Positions 7,991 through 58,531 of a DNA stretch of 64,000 nucleotides are shown here, one piece after another (positions within the stretch are counted from its first letter, which is position 1; each line of letters opens with the position of its first letter). The notes below the pieces were generated by a model. That model was given only the letters and a program-made list of their open reading frames with translations, searched no databases and was not told the DNA's origin. The DNA lies in assembly GCA_030390025.1 (NCBI GenBank), contig CM059447.1, forward strand, positions 3,534,001 to 3,598,000, in the 5' to 3' direction. Origin of the DNA: Squalus acanthias (Eukaryota). Both the position numbers and the translations under genes were made by a program.

Positions 7991-8574
7991 ATGGGTAACA
8001 AAAACTGTTCGATGAAAAGAAATAAGTGGTGTTACATGTCCTCTTCCATAATATGAATTAAGGGTGTGATGATAGAATAATGTACACCTCTTGGTGTAAA
8101 TTATAATGGGTCACTTAAGTACTATTGGTGCAAGGTTTGCGTATATGTGAGGAGGTTGATTCCAGAAGACCATGGCCTGTGAGGCTAAATATCTTATGCA
8201 AAAATCTCTGAAGATGTAGTAATTTGCAGTTGCTTCTGCACCTTTTCTCTCCCCCACTTCTTTCCATTCCAAGTTCTTTTTCTCCCCCACCCCGTCAATC
8301 ACCTGTATCCATCGCTGACTCAGATAATTGACATATAAACAAATTACTTCTAGGCCTCTGCTATACTAAGTGTCTGTTGGAAGGTGCAGGAAAATTAGTT
8401 GGCTTGCTGTTTAATCTTTATCTTTGCGTGCCTGTGGGTCAGCGTCTTGTGTCTCTGCTCAGCTTGACCATGGCAGCTCAGGTGAGATCAGAAACACAGA
8501 ATGGAGAGTTTTCAATTTGATTTCAATTCCTATAAAATTACACTTTGTAAACTTTCTATGGCACTTAAAGTACC

Positions 8575-9378
8575 TTGGCAGATGGAGTACAATGTGGGAA
8601 AATGTGAGGTTATCCACTTTGGAAGGAAGAATGAAGAAGCAAATTATTATTTAAATGGAGTGAGACTACAAAATGCTGCGGTACAAAGGGATCTGGGGGT
8701 CCTAGTACATGAAACACAAAAAGTTAGCATGCAGGTACAGCAAGTAATTAGGAAGGCTAATGGAATGATGGCCTTTATTGCAAGGGGTATGGCGTATAAA
8801 AGTTAGGAAGTTTTGATGCAACTTTACAGGGCGCTGGAGAGACCGCACCTGGAGTACTGCGTACAGTTTTGGTCTCCATATTTAAGGAAGGATATACTTG
8901 CATTGGAGGCAGTGCAGAGAAGGTTCACTAGGTTGATTCCTGGGATAAAGGGGTTGACATATGACGAAAGGTTGAGCAGGTTTGACCTATACTCATTGGA
9001 GTTTAGAAGAATGAGAGGTGATCTTATTGAAACATATAAGATTCTGAGGGGGATTGACAGGGTGGATGCTGAGAGGATGTTTCCCCTAGTGGAGGTATCT
9101 AGAACTAGGGGGCATAGTTTCAGAATAAGGGGTCGCCCATTTAAGACAGAGATGAGGAGGAATTTCTTCTGAGGGTCATGAATCTTTGGAATTCTCTACC
9201 CCAGAGAGCTGTGGAGGCGGAGTCATTGAATATATTCAAGGCGGAGATTGACAGACATTTGAACTACAAAGGAGTCAAGGGGTATGGGGAGAGAGCGGGA
9301 AAGTGGTGTTGAGGCCAAGATTGGATCAGCCATGAGGGGCCGATTGGCCTACTCCTGCTCCTGTTTCTTATGTTCTTA
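8575..9378 (+). mobile_element. CR1 LINE 3' end
   Basis: WQMEYNVGKCEVIHFG...RPHLEYCVQFWSPYLRKD...RGDLIETYKI; tail ggcctactcctgctcctgtttcttatgttctt. Confidence 0.95.
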
Positions 9379-17118: not shown

Positions 17119-18937
17119 CACGAGGCATACTGAAACTAACCCTCCTTTCTCTCTTTTCCCCTCTATTCCCCCCCCCCCCCCCTGCATAGGACTACGCGAA
17201 ACAAAAAACATTTTTTCCTGAAAACAGTAAATTAGTCGACCTGACTATGATGAAACTGCTTAAAACATACAAACTGGGTTGATGAGAACCTCGTTTATCA
17301 CAATCCATACTGAATTGTAAGAAGATTTGCTTTTGTATGGAATTTACAAGCTTGTATTTTTTTGTTCCCTTACAATTCAGCGTTGTTTCGTTCCCTGCCC
17401 CGCATCTCTCTCATTATTCTTTGTCAGGTTGGACAGCTTATGTACAGCTCCAGATATGCTCTTTTCAGTTTTCCGTGGGCATGCTTGAGTGATATGCCCA
17501 GGTATCCTCAGCCAGACAAGCTGCAAACTCATTGTACAGTGGCTATGAAAGTGTAATTCTCTTAGCCTGACAGATTATACTATTTAAAGTTAGTCTATCC
17601 ATGTACCCTGGGCTTTCCTCAAGGTACATCACCTCCGAACATGTTTTAGGTTTTGTCTCCTAGACAGCTACAGTAACCAACTACATGTAAGATGCTATTA
17701 GTTCAAAATTCATGTTCGTTGTCTGCTACTTACTTCGCTCAGTTAACCTGTTCGGTTCCGGTATAGCATTTAAGAATAAAGCATTGTCAGCCTGTGTGTG
17801 GGTCAGAAATTAGTGAAATGTTGAAACATTGCAAACAGATTGAAATTGGTTTCTTTTGTAGAATTTTCAGAGTAGATTTCACTGATTTGTAGGGTATTAA
17901 TGCAATCTCTTGCAGATTAATCCTGAGCTTTTGTGTTTGTAAAAAATGGATCTTGCTGCTAAATGTCAGGACTTTTGATTTAGAAAAGAGTGATTCATTT
18001 CTTTGGAGCTCCGTGCATTTTCTTAAAATCCATATTTGATGTAGAGTTAAGAACTTTACTGATCCTAGGTCTGGAATCTACCATGTATACTGTTGGGATC
18101 AGCAAACCATATTTCTCACATGCTCCATATACAAGTAGGTTAAGTTTAAATGTATCTAATTTTATACCCCTTTTACCATATACCCTTGGAGAGTGACACT
18201 CAAACTATCTCTCTACACCGCTTTCACACATTTATATTGTCATTAGGCACTGCACTCCTATATTCTGAAAAAGGGGACCATTTATTCTGCGTATCACATA
18301 TAGCAATGCAATGTGAGCTATGAACTTGAGATAAATTACTTTACTGGCTGGTTAGGGTGATGGGAAATCAATAAATTAACAGAGCCAGTACTGTTGTTCA
18401 GTGCTTTCGCAATATCACCTTATTTTGCGCTGTAAAATAAACACATTAATGCACTGAACCAGCACAGTGTTTAACAGACAATTAATAGAAGAGCTGGCAG
18501 ATTGCAAGACCCACGAAAATGTTGTTGATGTGCTGCCGTCAGTTTGCTGGAGATTGGATTGTTTATGTTCAGGAGTGCTGTCAATGACAGGAGAAATGCA
18601 CGTCACGGTACAAGGGTTTAATATCAATACTGTGATGGCTCCTATAGCTTTGTGAATTCTCTGCTGTTCTGCAGAAACTTACTCCTTGCTGGTGTGACTG
18701 TCTTTGTAATTTGGCACTCTGTTTCATGGTCGTGTAATCAGTAGTCGTTATTTCAAAGTATTTTATTAAAAAAACACAACACCCATTCATTGGGTGATAC
18801 AGAATTCAGCTTCTTGTGTCCAATTGATCACTGCTGTACTTGAAAACAAACATATGCCTTGAGTACATTGTTGCTATTTGATGCTATATGGATTACAGAA
18901 TGGATGTATTTTAAATAAGATTCTTAAATATCTTAAA

Positions 18938-19602
18938 TATGTGCACAAATCGTTGAAGATGGCAGGGCAGGTTGAGAAAGCAGTTAAAGCTTACAGGATC
19001 CTGGGCTTCATGAATAGAGGAATAGAGTACAAAAGCGTGGAAATTATGATGAACCTGTATAAAACACTGGTTCGGCCTCAACTGCAGTATTGTGTCCAAT
19101 TCTGGGCACCGCACTTTAGGAAGGATGTGAAGGTCTTAGAGAGGGTGCAGAAAAGATTTACGCGAATGCTTCCAGGGATGAGGGACTTCAGTTACGTGGA
19201 TAGACTGGAGAAGCTGGTGGTCTCCTTAGAGCAGAGAAGATTGAGAGGAGATTTGCTAGAGGTGTTCAAAATCATGAGGGGTCTGGACAGAGTAGATAGA
19301 GAGAAACTGTTCCCTTGGCAGAAGGGTCGAGAACCAGAGGACACAGATTTAAGGTGATTGGCAGAAGAACCAAAGGCGATATGAGGAAAAACCTTTTTAC
19401 TCAGCGAGTGGTTAGGATCTGAAATGCACTGCCTGAAAGGGTGGTGGAGGCAGACTCAATCACGGCTTTCAAAAGGGAGTTGGATAAGTACTTGAAGGAA
19501 AAAATTTTGCAGGGCTACGGGGAAAGGGTGGGGGGGAGTGGGACTAGCTGAGAGTCGGGACGGGCCAAGTGGCCTCCTTCAGTGCTGTAACCATTCTATG
19601 AT
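18938..19602 (+). mobile_element. CR1 LINE 3' end
   Basis: ORF 18878..19357 (YKTLVRPQLQYCVQFWAPHFRKDV...RRLRGDLLEVFKIM); tail ggcctccttcagtgctgtaaccattctatgat. Confidence 0.95.
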
Positions 19603-20062: not shown

Positions 20063-20101
20063 TATTATGTGCTAAGAATTTGGTGAAGAAAGACTTCTTC
20101 C
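20063..20101 (+). CDS. SMURF2: SMURF2 coding exon 2 (C2 domain: (V)LCAKNLVKKDFF(R))
   Basis: Polypyrimidine tract + tctag acceptor, gtaagt donor; 39 nt, phase 1-1; translation matches the SMURF C2 N-terminus and joins exon 3 in frame (C|GA = Arg). Confidence 0.95.
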
Positions 20102-25313: not shown

Positions 25314-25422
25314 GACTCCCTGATCCCTTTGCAAAGGTGGTAGTAGATGGGTCAGGTCAGTGCCATTCTACAGACACAGTGAAGAACACCCTAGACCCAA
25401 AGTGGAATCAGCATTATGATCT
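25314..25422 (+). CDS. SMURF2: SMURF2 coding exon 3 (RLPDPFAKVVVDGSGQCHSTDTVKNTLDPKWNQHYDL)
   Basis: ttttttgtttccctttag acceptor, gtgagt donor; 109 nt; translation is the SMURF C2 core. Confidence 0.97.
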
Positions 25423-41904: not shown

Positions 41905-43218
41905 GCTACAGCTATACAAAGCCCTGGTTAGACCACATCCGGAGTACTGTGTACAGTTCTGGGCAATGCACTGTAGAAAGGATATATTAGTCTTGGAAGA
42001 TTCATCAGAATGTTACCAGGGCTCCAAGGGTTAAGTTATGAGGAGAGATTACGTAAACTAGGATTGTATTCCCTGGAATATAGAAGTTAATTTTTTTTTG
42101 AAGATAGGAGCAGGAGTAGGCCATTCGGCCCCTCGAGCCTGCTCCGCCATTCAATGCGATCATGGCTGATCATCTAAATTCAGTACCCTGTCCCTGCTTT
42201 CTCCCCATATCCCTTGATCCCCTTAGCCTTAAGAAATATATCTAACTCCTTGAATATATTTAATGAATTGGCTTCAACTGCTTTCTGTGGTAGAGAATTC
42301 CACAGGTTCACCATTCTCTGGGTGAAGAAATTCCTCCTCATCTCGGTCTTAAATGGCTTACCCCTTATCCTCAGACTGTGACCTCTGGTTCTGGACTCCC
42401 CCGCCATCGGGAACATCCTTCCTGCATCTAGTCTGTCCAGACCTGTCAGAATTTTATAAGTTTCAATGAGATCCCCTCTCATTCTTCTAAACTCTAGCGA
42501 ATATAAGCCTAATCGACCCAATCTCTCTTCATACGTCATTCCTGCCATCCCAGGTATCAGTCTGGTGAATCTTCGCTGCACTCCCTTCATGGCAAGAACA
42601 TCCTTCCTCAGATAAGGCGACCAAAACTGCACACACTACTCAAGGTGTGGTCTCACCAAGGCCCTGTACAACTGCAGCAAGACATCCTTGCTCCTGTACT
42701 CTAATCCTCTCGCTATGAAGGCCAACATACCATTTGCCTTCTTAACCGCCTGCTGCACCTGCATGCTTACCTTCAGCGACTGGTGCACAAGGACACCCAG
42801 GTCTCATTGCACTTCCCCTTTTCCCAATCTATTGCCGTTATGGGGTGCTTTTATTGAGGCTTTTAGAATTTTGATAGGAATTGATAGGGTCGACAGAGAG
42901 AAACGTTGGTAAGGGAGTCCAGGATAAGGGGACATAACCTTAAAATCAGAACCAGGCCATTAAGGAGAGAAGTTAGGAAACACTTCTTCACACACAGGGT
43001 GGTAGAAATGTGGAACTCTCCGCCACAACAAGCAGTAGATGCTAGCTCAATTAATAATTTTAAATCTGAGATTGATAGATTTTTGCTAGTCAAGAGTATT
43101 AAGGGTTATGCAGCCAAGGTGGGTAGATAGAGTTTGGATACAGATCAGCCATGATCTCATTAAATAGAAGAACAGAATCGAAGGGCTGAACGGCCTACTA
43201 CTATTCCTATATTCCTAT
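41905..43218 (+). mobile_element. CR1 LINE 3' end (outer copy: 41905-42089 plus 42837-43218), split by an antisense CR1
   Basis: The CR1 sequence (...tattccctggaatatagaagtta | gttatggggtgcttttattgag...) resumes across the insertion; ORF 42906..43130 continues CR1. Confidence 0.85.
42090..42836 (-). mobile_element. CR1 LINE 3' end (inner, younger copy)
   Basis: ORF 42180..42632 is an intact CR1 C-terminus (QFWSPYLRKD...VNLWNSLP); gtta on both sides. Confidence 0.95.
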
Positions 43219-43425: not shown

Positions 43426-43559
43426 ATATATTGGGAGATCAGATTCTATAACCATCAGCGTTTGGAATCACAAGAAAATCCACAAAAAACAGGGTGCTGG
43501 TTTCCTTGGCTGTGTGCGACTCCTTTCCAATGCCATCAATCGCCTTAAAGATACTGGTT
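43426..43559 (+). CDS. SMURF2: SMURF2 coding exon 4 (YIGRSDSITISVWNHKKIHKKQGAGFLGCVRLLSNAINRLKDTG)
   Basis: tttccag acceptor, gtgagt donor; 134 nt; in frame with exons 3 and 5. Confidence 0.97.
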
Positions 43560-45297: not shown

Positions 45298-45363
45298 ATC
45301 AGAGACTGGATCTATGCAAACTGAGCCCTAACGACAATGATACAGTAAGGGGGCAGATAGTAG
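45298..45363 (+). CDS. SMURF2: SMURF2 coding exon 5 (YQRLDLCKLSPNDNDTVRGQIV)
   Basis: ttttccacag acceptor, gtatgt donor; 66 nt; NDNDTVRGQIV is SMURF2-type. Confidence 0.96.
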
Positions 45364-46135: not shown

Positions 46136-46220
46136 TAAGCCTTCAGTCTAGGGATCGGATAGGCAGTGGAGGTCCTGTGGTGGATTGCAGTCGTTTGTTT
46201 GATAATGACTTGCCAGACGG
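46136..46220 (+). CDS. SMURF2: SMURF2 coding exon 6 (VSLQSRDRIGSGGPVVDCSRLFDNDLPDG)
   Basis: ttacag acceptor, gtaaga donor; 85 nt; SRLFDNDLPDG separates SMURF2 from SMURF1; visible at the end of ORF 45805..46224. Confidence 0.96.
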
Positions 46221-51193: not shown

Positions 51194-51277
51194 TTGGGAA
51201 GAACGAAGAACTGCCTCAGGTCGGATACAGTATCTCAACCACATCACACGAACGACACAGTGGGAGAGACCTACTCG
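51194..51277 (+). CDS. SMURF2: SMURF2 coding exon 7 (WW1 domain: WEERRTASGRIQYLNHITRTTQWERPT)
   Basis: gactag acceptor, gtaagt donor; 84 nt, phase 2-2; canonical WW signature W...Y.NH...T.W..P. Confidence 0.97.
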
Positions 51278-57726: not shown

Positions 57727-57929
57727 GCCGGCCTCTGAATATGCCAGTCCTGGCAGGCCACTGAGTTGCATCGTGGATGAGAATACACCAATTACACCAG
57801 CTAATGGCGCCTCATGTGGACAGACCCCTGACCCAAGGATGGCAGAGAGGAGAGTGAGGTCACAAAGACACAGGAACTATATGAGTCGGACGCATTTGCA
57901 CCTCCCACCCGATCTCCCAGAAGGTTATG
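57727..57929 (+). CDS. SMURF2: SMURF2 coding exon 8 (linker to WW2: PASEYASPGRPLSCIVDENTPITPANGASCGQTPDPRMAERRVRSQRHRNYMSRTHLHLPPDLPEGY)
   Basis: tcatag acceptor, gtaagt donor; 203 nt; part of ORF 57773..58024; ends at the WW2 start LPEGY. Confidence 0.96.
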
Positions 57930-58119
57930 GTAAGTTGCCTAATTTCACTTTGAGTAGAAGCCTGTCTAATGTAATCTTGGGGATTGTTATAATCCTGTTT
58001 TGCATCACGTGTGATTTTGGTTAGCATTATTTTGAGTATTATAAGCAGATAGGGAGTTTGCTGTACACAAGTAAATATTGTCAGTATATACAAAAGGCAG
58101 TTGAGTTTCCTGCTATAAC

Positions 58120-58531
58120 ATAAGATTGAGTAGACTAGGCCCATATTCTCTGGAGTTTAGAAGAATGAGGGGTGATCTCATTGAAACATATAAAATTCTG
58201 AAGGGGCTCGACAGGGTAGATGCAGGGAGGATGTTTCCCCTGGCTAGGGAGTCTAGAACTAGGGGTCGGCCACGTAGGACTGAGATGAGAAATTTCTTCA
58301 CTCAGAGGGTTGTGATTTTTGGAATTTACCCCAGAGGGCTGTGGATGCTCAGTCGTTGAGTACATTCAATAAAGAAATCGCTAGATTATTGGATACTAAG
58401 TGAATCAAGGAATATGGGGACAGTGCGGGAAGAAGGAGTTGAGGTAGAAGATCATCCATGATCTTATTGAACGGTGGAGCAGGCTCGAAGGGCTGAATGG
58501 CCTACTCCTGCTCCTATTTCTTATGTTCTTC
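58120..58531 (+). mobile_element. CR1 LINE 3' end
   Basis: SRLGPYSLEFRRMRGDLIETYKILKGLDRVDAGRMFPL; tail ggcctactcctgctcctatttcttatgttctt. Confidence 0.93.

What the first reader, a model, noticed from the sequence alone, without database searches (positions are those of the whole stretch)
57727..57929. SMURF2 lacks the T249-P site linked to ERK5 control of cartilage/bone programmes, and has two other T-P motifs
Seen: exon 8 reads THLH-L-PPDLPEGY, with Leu encoded by CTC at 57902-57904. Established (recalled): mammalian SMURF2 reads THLH-T249-PPDLPEGY, and mouse work reports that ERK5 phosphorylation of T249 speeds Smad degradation and restrains Sox9 in skeletal mesenchyme. CTC is two substitutions from any Thr codon, so a single-base error cannot explain it, and the flanking residues are otherwise invariant. 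The same exon has ITPA and QTPD where I recall ISGT and QSSD in human. Inference: in a probable cartilaginous fish the ERK5-SMURF2-Smad-Sox9 brake may be absent or moved to other sites, which could bear on a permanently cartilaginous skeleton.
Basis: partly seen in the sequence, partly recalled or inferred. Interest (0 to 1): 0.7.

Follow-up and report, generated by a model that had tools for sequence, protein, structure and literature searches.

The report
SMURF2 phosphosite gained by bony vertebrates
Sharks, a ray and a chimaera have leucine, and lampreys and hagfish glutamine, where bony vertebrates carry the threonine whose phosphorylation activates the protein-degrading enzyme SMURF2 in mammals, so this switch was likely added in bony vertebrates rather than lost in sharks; any role in building bone is untested.

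Summary
Exon 8 (57727-57929) of an intact, spliced SMURF2 gene has CTC (Leu) at the position of mouse Thr249, confirmed in 6 of 6 laid runs covering the codon. All five named chondrichthyan species retrieved have Leu; tetrapods and sturgeon have Thr-Pro. It is one of only 3 of 736 columns fixed differently between the two classes.

It lies five residues after Arg244 of the autoinhibitory linker, whose lock residues sharks keep. In teleosts the motif is lost only in one duplicate type (13 of 39, against 0 of 41).

The skeleton link is weak: one evolutionary event, cartilage-rich sturgeon keeps Thr, and mouse data point both ways. Of the two extra T-P motifs only T223-P is fixed in chondrichthyans. 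ERK5 was not found in this assembly (unresolved); a MEK5-like exon was. No paper or earlier scan note on this was found.

The parts
20063..20101 (+). SMURF2 exon 2 (C2 domain)
   Evidence: tblastn; splice sites read
25314..25422 (+). SMURF2 exon 3 (C2 domain)
43426..43559 (+). SMURF2 exon 4 (C2 domain); carries R71 at 43436-43438, a chondrichthyan-specific change from Lys
45298..45363 (+). SMURF2 exon 5
46136..46220 (+). SMURF2 exon 6
51194..51277 (+). SMURF2 exon 7 (WW1, with lock residue H178)
   Evidence: spliced to exon 8 in contigs X7, X11
57727..57929 (+). SMURF2 exon 8: WW1-WW2 linker and start of WW2 (residues 191-257, mouse numbering)
57743..57751 (+). A196-S197-P198: Ala196 is chondrichthyan-specific (Ser in bony vertebrates); S197-P is shared with mouse
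57785..57790 (+). T210-P211, S/T-P motif shared with mouse, sturgeon and most teleosts
57794..57799 (+). T213-P214 (ITPA): T, S or A among chondrichthyans, not fixed
57824..57829 (+). T223-P224 (QTPD): present in the window and 6 of 6 other chondrichthyan-type records, absent from the bony vertebrates listed; only candidate substitute site
57878..57889 (+). Y241-M-S-R244: linker residues that dock on the HECT domain in human SMURF2; kept in the shark
   Evidence: PMC6639328 passages
57902..57907 (+). L249 (CTC) - P250: the position of mammalian T249-P250

Best explanation
This is an intact shark SMURF2 with leucine at residue 249, where lampreys, hagfish and SMURF1 have glutamine and bony vertebrates threonine, so the ERK5 site T249-P was likely gained in bony vertebrates and the shark enzyme likely never had it. 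Shown here: the three residue states and their distribution, the intact spliced gene, and the retention of the lock residues H178, Y241, R244, Y368, E440, Y443 from invertebrates to mouse. From papers: in human SMURF2 the linker (Y241, R244) docks on the HECT domain (E440, Y443) and holds the ligase shut; phosphorylation of T249 raises ligase activity. Inferred: T249 sits five residues after R244 at the linker/WW2 border, so its phosphate likely loosens the linker from HECT; bony vertebrates would have added a kinase-operated key to an ancient lock, by Gln (or Leu) to Thr next to a proline that was already there. The shark enzyme would be opened by the older routes (Smad7 or PY-motif binding) and keeps the c-Src (Y314, Y434) and ATM (S384) sites. 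Its Leu is one base change from Gln and likely has little effect of its own.
For: Tally of 307 stored records with this linker end (records and isoforms, not species): TP 255, SP 2, LP 12 (10 named chondrichthyan, 2 unnamed), QP 10 (Lethenteron, Petromyzon, Myxine, Eptatretus), TH 12, MH 7, ST 6, AP 3 (all teleost). SMURF1 in this genome has CAG Gln at the aligned place, as do whale-shark and teleost-type SMURF1. 0 of 69 invertebrate or unnamed invertebrate-like records have S/T-P. The tree puts cyclostome Smurf and SMURF1 outside jawed-vertebrate SMURF2 (SH-aLRT 98; their order unresolved), and both carry Gln. Fewest base changes Q-L 1, Q-T 2, L-T 2: three steps if Thr arose in bony vertebrates, four if it arose earlier and was lost in sharks (counted by hand). 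Signs of selection on the motif in bony fish, 76 named teleost species: type-a copies keep S/T-P in 41 of 41 (Anabas swaps to Ser-Pro), type-b in 26 of 39; Thr becomes Met only where Pro250 is already His. Lock residues conserved (PMC6639328 passages). T249 function: PMC7358609, PMC8752672, PMC8948490 passages, PMC11104408 whole text. Downstream exons intact, catalytic Cys TGC across a junction.
Against: The parsimony margin is one step over about 450 million years, so gain in the jawed-vertebrate stem with loss in chondrichthyans is not excluded. No bichir, gar, coelacanth, lungfish, amphioxus or tunicate record was among the named hits; each homolog search listed only 120 hits (of 274, 263 and 238). 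For 12 of the 16 teleost species with a copy lacking S/T-P at 249-250, no second copy with it was retrieved (four cichlids, two gadiforms, Paramormyrops, herring, four whose congeners or relatives have one), so some bony fish may lack the site. The a/b labels come from a linker motif, not from the tree, 11 copies were unclassified, and the losses are about four events, so the Fisher value overstates. That phospho-T249 acts by releasing the linker is my inference; no solved structure found covers T249. The T249 work read here comes from one group, and the primary paper was not held. In glioma ERK5 is thought unlikely to be the T249 kinase (PMC8752672).
Confidence: 0.7

Rival explanations
1. One reading: chondrichthyans lost T249, removing an ERK5-SMURF2-Smad-Sox9 brake, and this helps keep their skeleton cartilaginous.
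For: Leu is fixed in all chondrichthyan records and Thr in nearly all bony vertebrates. Prx1-Cre Erk5 loss delays long-bone mineralisation and is rescued by Sox9 heterozygosity (PMC8948490 passages). The shark-bony fish ancestor had perichondral bone, perhaps endochondral bone (PMC8727550 passages), so a shark-side loss would fit the fossils.
Against: Outgroups have Gln; loss needs four base changes against three. One event on one branch cannot show correlation. Sturgeon, whose endoskeleton is largely cartilage (recalled), keeps T-P. Erk5 loss in adult marrow stroma increases bone and T249E knock-in femurs are unchanged (PMC11104408); Smurf2-null mice are described as osteoporotic yet form more BMP-induced bone (PMC9455957 passages). 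The mouse effect also runs through SMAD1 S206, not checked here.
Confidence: 0.07
2. Thr arose in the jawed-vertebrate stem and was replaced by Leu in chondrichthyans, with no marked effect on the skeleton.
For: Only one step less parsimonious; teleost duplicates show the motif can be lost repeatedly; ERK5 was not detected in this assembly, and loss of the kinase would free the site.
Against: Chondrichthyan SMURF2 is single copy here and slowly evolving, and no single-copy tetrapod or sturgeon record has lost the site. A MEK5-like exon is retained.
Confidence: 0.15
3. The control is kept but moved: sharks use T223-P224 (or T/S213-P) as their own proline-directed kinase site.
For: T223-P is in the window and 6 of 6 other chondrichthyan-type records, ray and chimaera included, in an otherwise variable stretch; cyclostomes have an S-P nearby.
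Against: It lies 18-21 residues before the docking residues Y241 and R244; T213-P is not fixed; S/T-P pairs are common in this linker (mouse has two more; teleosts carry one near 214 alongside T249); chondrichthyan SMURF2 changes slowly, so fixation alone means little.
Confidence: 0.12
4. Thr249 is conserved in bony vertebrates for a reason other than ERK5 or the skeleton: another proline-directed kinase, or control of TGF-beta receptor turnover in other tissues.
For: pT249 controls TGFBR stability in glioma cells where ERK5 is judged unlikely to be the kinase (PMC8752672 passages). The Ser swap and the loss order fit any S/T-P kinase.
Against: T249E rescues the Erk5-null marrow phenotype in vivo (PMC11104408). 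This rival is compatible with the gain scenario and differs only in what selected the site.
Confidence: 0.3

Closest known systems
Mammalian SMURF2 and its ERK5-pT249 switch (Iezaki 2018, known here only through PMC7358609, PMC8948490, PMC11117709 passages and PMC11104408 whole text)
   Same: Same gene: C2-WW1-WW2-WW3-HECT, exons 85-100% identical to mouse, lock residues, catalytic Cys, Y314, Y434 and S384 kept.
   Different: Leu replaces Thr249, so the site cannot be phosphorylated; T223-P is added; Ala replaces Ser196.
Multi-lock autoinhibition of Nedd4/Nedd4L/SMURF2 by C2, WW1 and linker L (PMC6639328, passages)
   Same: All six interface residues named for SMURF2 are present in sharks and, with Tyr/Phe at 241, in cyclostomes and invertebrates.
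   Different: The passages seen do not discuss T249; placing the phosphosite on this lock is my inference.
Cyclostome Smurf, SMURF1 and invertebrate Smurf
   Same: No S/T-P at 249-250; cyclostomes match the shark on both sides of the residue (RTHLH-x-PPDLP).
   Different: They have Gln (Asn, Asp and others in invertebrates); SMURF1 has a Ser-Pro shifted by one residue (250-251) and a diverged linker.
Known molecular correlates of the cartilaginous skeleton (SCPP genes, PMC3964593 passages; a later scpp report in elasmobranchs, PMC9122587, listing only)
   Same: A difference that maps to the chondrichthyan/osteichthyan split and touches bone formation.
   Different: A single regulatory residue, with no loss-of-function test yet in any fish.

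Membership tests
SMURF2 (NEDD4-family HECT E3) | C2, three WW domains, HECT in order | tested here: met
   tblastn of SMURF2 records finds exons 2-8 in the window and the rest in L003-L007; three WW hits on C24 at this gene. Exon 1 not found in the window or 60 kb upstream.
SMURF2 (NEDD4-family HECT E3) | Catalytic HECT cysteine (C716) and open frame | tested here: met
   TG|C across the exon junction; no stop in matched exons.
SMURF2 (NEDD4-family HECT E3) | Orthology to SMURF2, not SMURF1 | tested here: met
   Exons 97-100% identical to Narcine SMURF2 over their true lengths; shark records group with jawed SMURF2, SH-aLRT 98 (the window's own protein was not in the tree); a separate SMURF1 lies on C18.
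ERK5-SMURF2(pT249)-Smad-Sox9 axis | Ser/Thr-Pro at 249-250 | tested here: not met
   Leu-Pro.
ERK5-SMURF2(pT249)-Smad-Sox9 axis | ERK5 (MAPK7) gene in the genome | tested here: inconclusive
   Not found by 4 patterns and 3 protein searches nor in 800 kb around NOSIP; the tool scores only best candidates and the assembly may have gaps.
ERK5-SMURF2(pT249)-Smad-Sox9 axis | MEK5 (MAP2K5) gene | tested here: inconclusive
   One exon matching a recalled MEK5 activation-loop motif on C23; rest of the gene not examined.
ERK5-SMURF2(pT249)-Smad-Sox9 axis | Phosphorylation of the linker raises Smad ubiquitylation | not testable with these tools
   Needs kinase and ubiquitylation assays.
ERK5-SMURF2(pT249)-Smad-Sox9 axis | ERK5 site S206 in the SMAD1 linker | not tested
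   Named in PMC8948490; shark SMAD1 not examined.
C2/WW1/linker multi-lock autoinhibition | Interface residues H178, Y241, R244, Y368, E440, Y443 | tested here: met
   for other sharks; for this gene.
C2/WW1/linker multi-lock autoinhibition | Physical linker-HECT binding | tested here: inconclusive
   AlphaFold model of Narcine SMURF2 has pLDDT under 50 over residues 201-255.

The most novel reading that the evidence does not exclude
Bony vertebrates invented the ERK5-to-SMURF2 switch by one residue change beside an ancient autoinhibitory latch, giving ERK5 control over Smad and Sox9 levels and so over when cartilage is replaced by bone; sharks never had the switch and may even lack ERK5 itself, and restoring Gln or Leu in a mouse or zebrafish would delay endochondral ossification.
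Probability: 0.12. Interest if true: 0.75.

Novelty: new variant of a known kind. Interest (0 to 1): 0.44.

Why it matters
It dates a functionally tested mammalian phosphosite to the chondrichthyan/osteichthyan split, in a protein that otherwise hardly changes, and gives natural alleles (Gln, Leu, Thr, Ser, Thr-His, Met-His, Ala) for testing how the site opens the ligase. If the site affects ossification timing it would be a rare single-residue regulatory gain behind cartilage replacement. As it stands it is a clean, cheap hypothesis with n = 1 in evolution, and a genome-wide hunt would be expected to turn up other class-specific phosphosites by chance.

Tried and rejected
Sequencing or assembly error: rejected. 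Pseudogene or second copy with Thr: rejected; one SMURF2 and one SMURF1 match in the genome, gene intact. 'Percomorph fish generally lack T249', suggested by Xiphophorus MH: rejected, only one duplicate type loses it. PDB search with the exon found nothing; with linker+WW2+WW3 the SMURF2 entries begin at P250/P251. AlphaFold model uninformative for the linker (mean pLDDT 58). First FastTree run misplaced whale-shark SMURF1 because of a mis-predicted N-terminus; it was masked, a quick tree in which teleost a and b copies did not resolve. No model-based estimate of the ancestral residue is available, so polarity rests on outgroup states and base-change counts. No RNA holder was on record as RNA; X7 and X11 are RNA by guess and by their spliced ends. 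ERK5 searches and the PB1 search (three PAR6-like hits, one read) did not settle ERK5; NOSIP is present, so that control shows no assembly gap. Primary paper not held. Paper searches for an evolutionary survey of T249 or of shark SMURF2/ERK5 (listings only, open-access library only) showed none; supplements were not read, and an alignment in the 2018 paper could bear on novelty. Earlier scan notes: nothing relevant.

Full report
Observation. The window holds exons 2-8 of a SMURF2 gene on the + strand; the remaining exons follow within 46 kb beyond the window and are open, with the catalytic Cys split as TG|C. Exon 8 spans 57727-57929 and ends ...RNYMSRTHLH-L-PPDLPEGY. The Leu codon CTC at 57902-57904 aligns with T249 of the mouse record. 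Six of eight laid runs cover the codon and all six agree with CTC; two of them are contigs that splice exon 7 to 8 to 9 exactly. The genome search finds one SMURF2 and one SMURF1 match. So the residue is real, transcribed and not backed up by a second copy.

Distribution. Among the 120 listed hits of the first search (274 passed), 112 have Thr, 7 Leu and 1 Ser. The Leu records are Rhincodon, Chiloscyllium, Scyliorhinus, Narcine, Callorhinchus and one unnamed. Across all 307 stored records with this linker end the pair 249-250 is TP 255, SP 2, LP 12, QP 10, TH 12, MH 7, ST 6, AP 3. In a column comparison of 52 records that I chose, only 3 of 736 positions are fixed differently between chondrichthyans and bony vertebrates: K71R, S196A and T249L. 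T249L is the only radical one.

Direction. Two lampreys and two hagfish read RTHLH-Q-PPDLP, identical to the shark on both sides of the residue. SMURF1 has Gln at the aligned place, CAG in this genome. None of 69 invertebrate or unnamed invertebrate-like records has S/T-P there. The quick tree places cyclostome Smurf and SMURF1 outside jawed-vertebrate SMURF2, in unresolved order; both give Gln as the outgroup state. Gln to Leu needs one base change, Gln to Thr and Leu to Thr two each. A Thr gained in bony vertebrates costs three steps, a Thr gained earlier and lost in sharks four. That is a narrow margin, and early bony fishes other than sturgeon were not sampled; I put the gain at about 0.75-0.8.

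Selection on the motif. Teleosts carry two linker types, which I take to be genome-duplication copies (labelled by motif; the tree did not resolve them). Type a keeps S/T-P in 41 of 41 species-copies, with a Ser swap in Anabas; type b keeps it in 26 of 39; 8 of 11 unclassified keep it. Thr becomes Met only in fish where Pro250 is already His. Four species show both a copy without and a copy with the motif; for 12 others the second copy was not retrieved. This is the pattern expected of a used proline-directed phosphosite that becomes dispensable in a spare copy, but it rests on about four events.

Mechanism. In human SMURF2 the linker residues Y241 and R244 bind HECT E440 and Y443, WW1 H178 binds Y368, and mutating them raises activity (PMC6639328, passages). 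All six are kept in sharks, and in cyclostomes and invertebrates with Tyr or Phe at 241. T249 is five residues past R244. ERK5 phosphorylation of T249 raises Smad ubiquitylation, T249A blocks it and T249E mimics it (PMC7358609, passages). I infer that the phosphate loosens the linker from HECT, so bony vertebrates added a key to an old lock. The shark keeps Y314, Y434 and S384 (for other sharks, for this gene). No structure found covers T249 and the fold prediction is unusable there.

The other T-P motifs. Exon 8 has four S/T-P pairs. S197-P and T210-P are shared with mouse. T213-P varies among chondrichthyans (T, S, A). T223-P is in the window and 6 of 6 other chondrichthyan-type records and in none of the seven bony vertebrates printed. 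It is the only fair candidate for a substitute site, but lies about 20 residues from the docking residues.

Skeleton. For: Erk5 loss in limb progenitors delays mineralisation, rescued by Sox9 heterozygosity (PMC8948490, passages), and living cyclostomes and chondrichthyans lack both the site and endochondral bone (PMC3964593, passages). Against: a single branch; sturgeon keeps T-P though largely cartilaginous (recalled); adult Erk5 loss gives more bone and T249E femurs are unchanged (PMC11104408, whole text); the site also works in glioma, probably through another kinase (PMC8752672, passages); bone may predate the split (PMC8727550, passages), which would not match a later gain.

ERK5 in this genome. 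Seven searches recovered ERK2-, ERK3/4-, MAPK15-, NLK- and p38-like exons (named from recall of their sequences) but no ERK5. The lack of ERK1 agrees with PMC4559367 (passages). A MEK5-like exon is present. 800 kb around NOSIP, chosen from teleost synteny (PMC3554528, passages), holds no kinase exon. An assembly gap or the tool's candidate filter is more likely than true loss, but this is open.

Novelty and verdict. Eight paper searches (listings of an open-access library) and four look-ups in earlier scan notes showed no account of this site's evolution; the 2018 primary paper could not be read. The gene is an ordinary SMURF2; the new point is a three-state, class-diagnostic residue that likely dates a known regulatory switch to bony vertebrates. 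New variant of a known kind; interest 0.44.

Noticed in passing
G000 whole genome; MEK5-like exon L064 (C23:56398952-56398974, minus): ERK5/MAPK7 not detected in seven searches although a MEK5-like exon is present and other MAPKs were recovered; only one ERK1/2 gene (C13), as published for chondrichthyans.
   Followed up: partly
L002:1486-1755 (G000:C18:57679214-57679420): SMURF1 paralogue: Gln at the 249 position followed by Ser-Pro, a proline-directed motif shifted by one residue; herring SMURF2 has a similarly shifted Thr-Pro.
   Followed up: partly
window 43436-43438 and 57743-57745: K71R and S196A are the only other fixed chondrichthyan/osteichthyan differences in SMURF2; cyclostomes have Lys at 71 and Gly or Ser at 196.
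   Followed up: partly
teleost records P0336-P0413, P0464: One teleost smurf2 duplicate type has lost the T249-P motif several times (TH in cichlids and medakas, MH in killifish and livebearers, AP in cods, TH in bonytongues), a natural allele series.
   Followed up: yes
cyclostome records P0466, P0470, P0494, P0499: The ATM site S384 is Ala in all four cyclostome records but Ser in sharks, so it looks like a jawed-vertebrate gain.
   Followed up: no
P0002 (Rhincodon record) and P0448 (Larimichthys): Database models fuse SMURF2 exons to importin-alpha; likely annotation artefacts of neighbouring genes. No importin-alpha exon within 140 kb downstream or 60 kb upstream here.
   Followed up: partly
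window 1-20062 and L017-L022: SMURF2 exon 1 was not found in the 80 kb upstream of exon 2.
   Followed up: partly
window introns, e.g. 8486-9169, 18863-19354, 42183-42635, 58105-58356: Many decayed LINE-like (CR1/L2-type by recall) reverse-transcriptase fragments in the introns.
   Followed up: no
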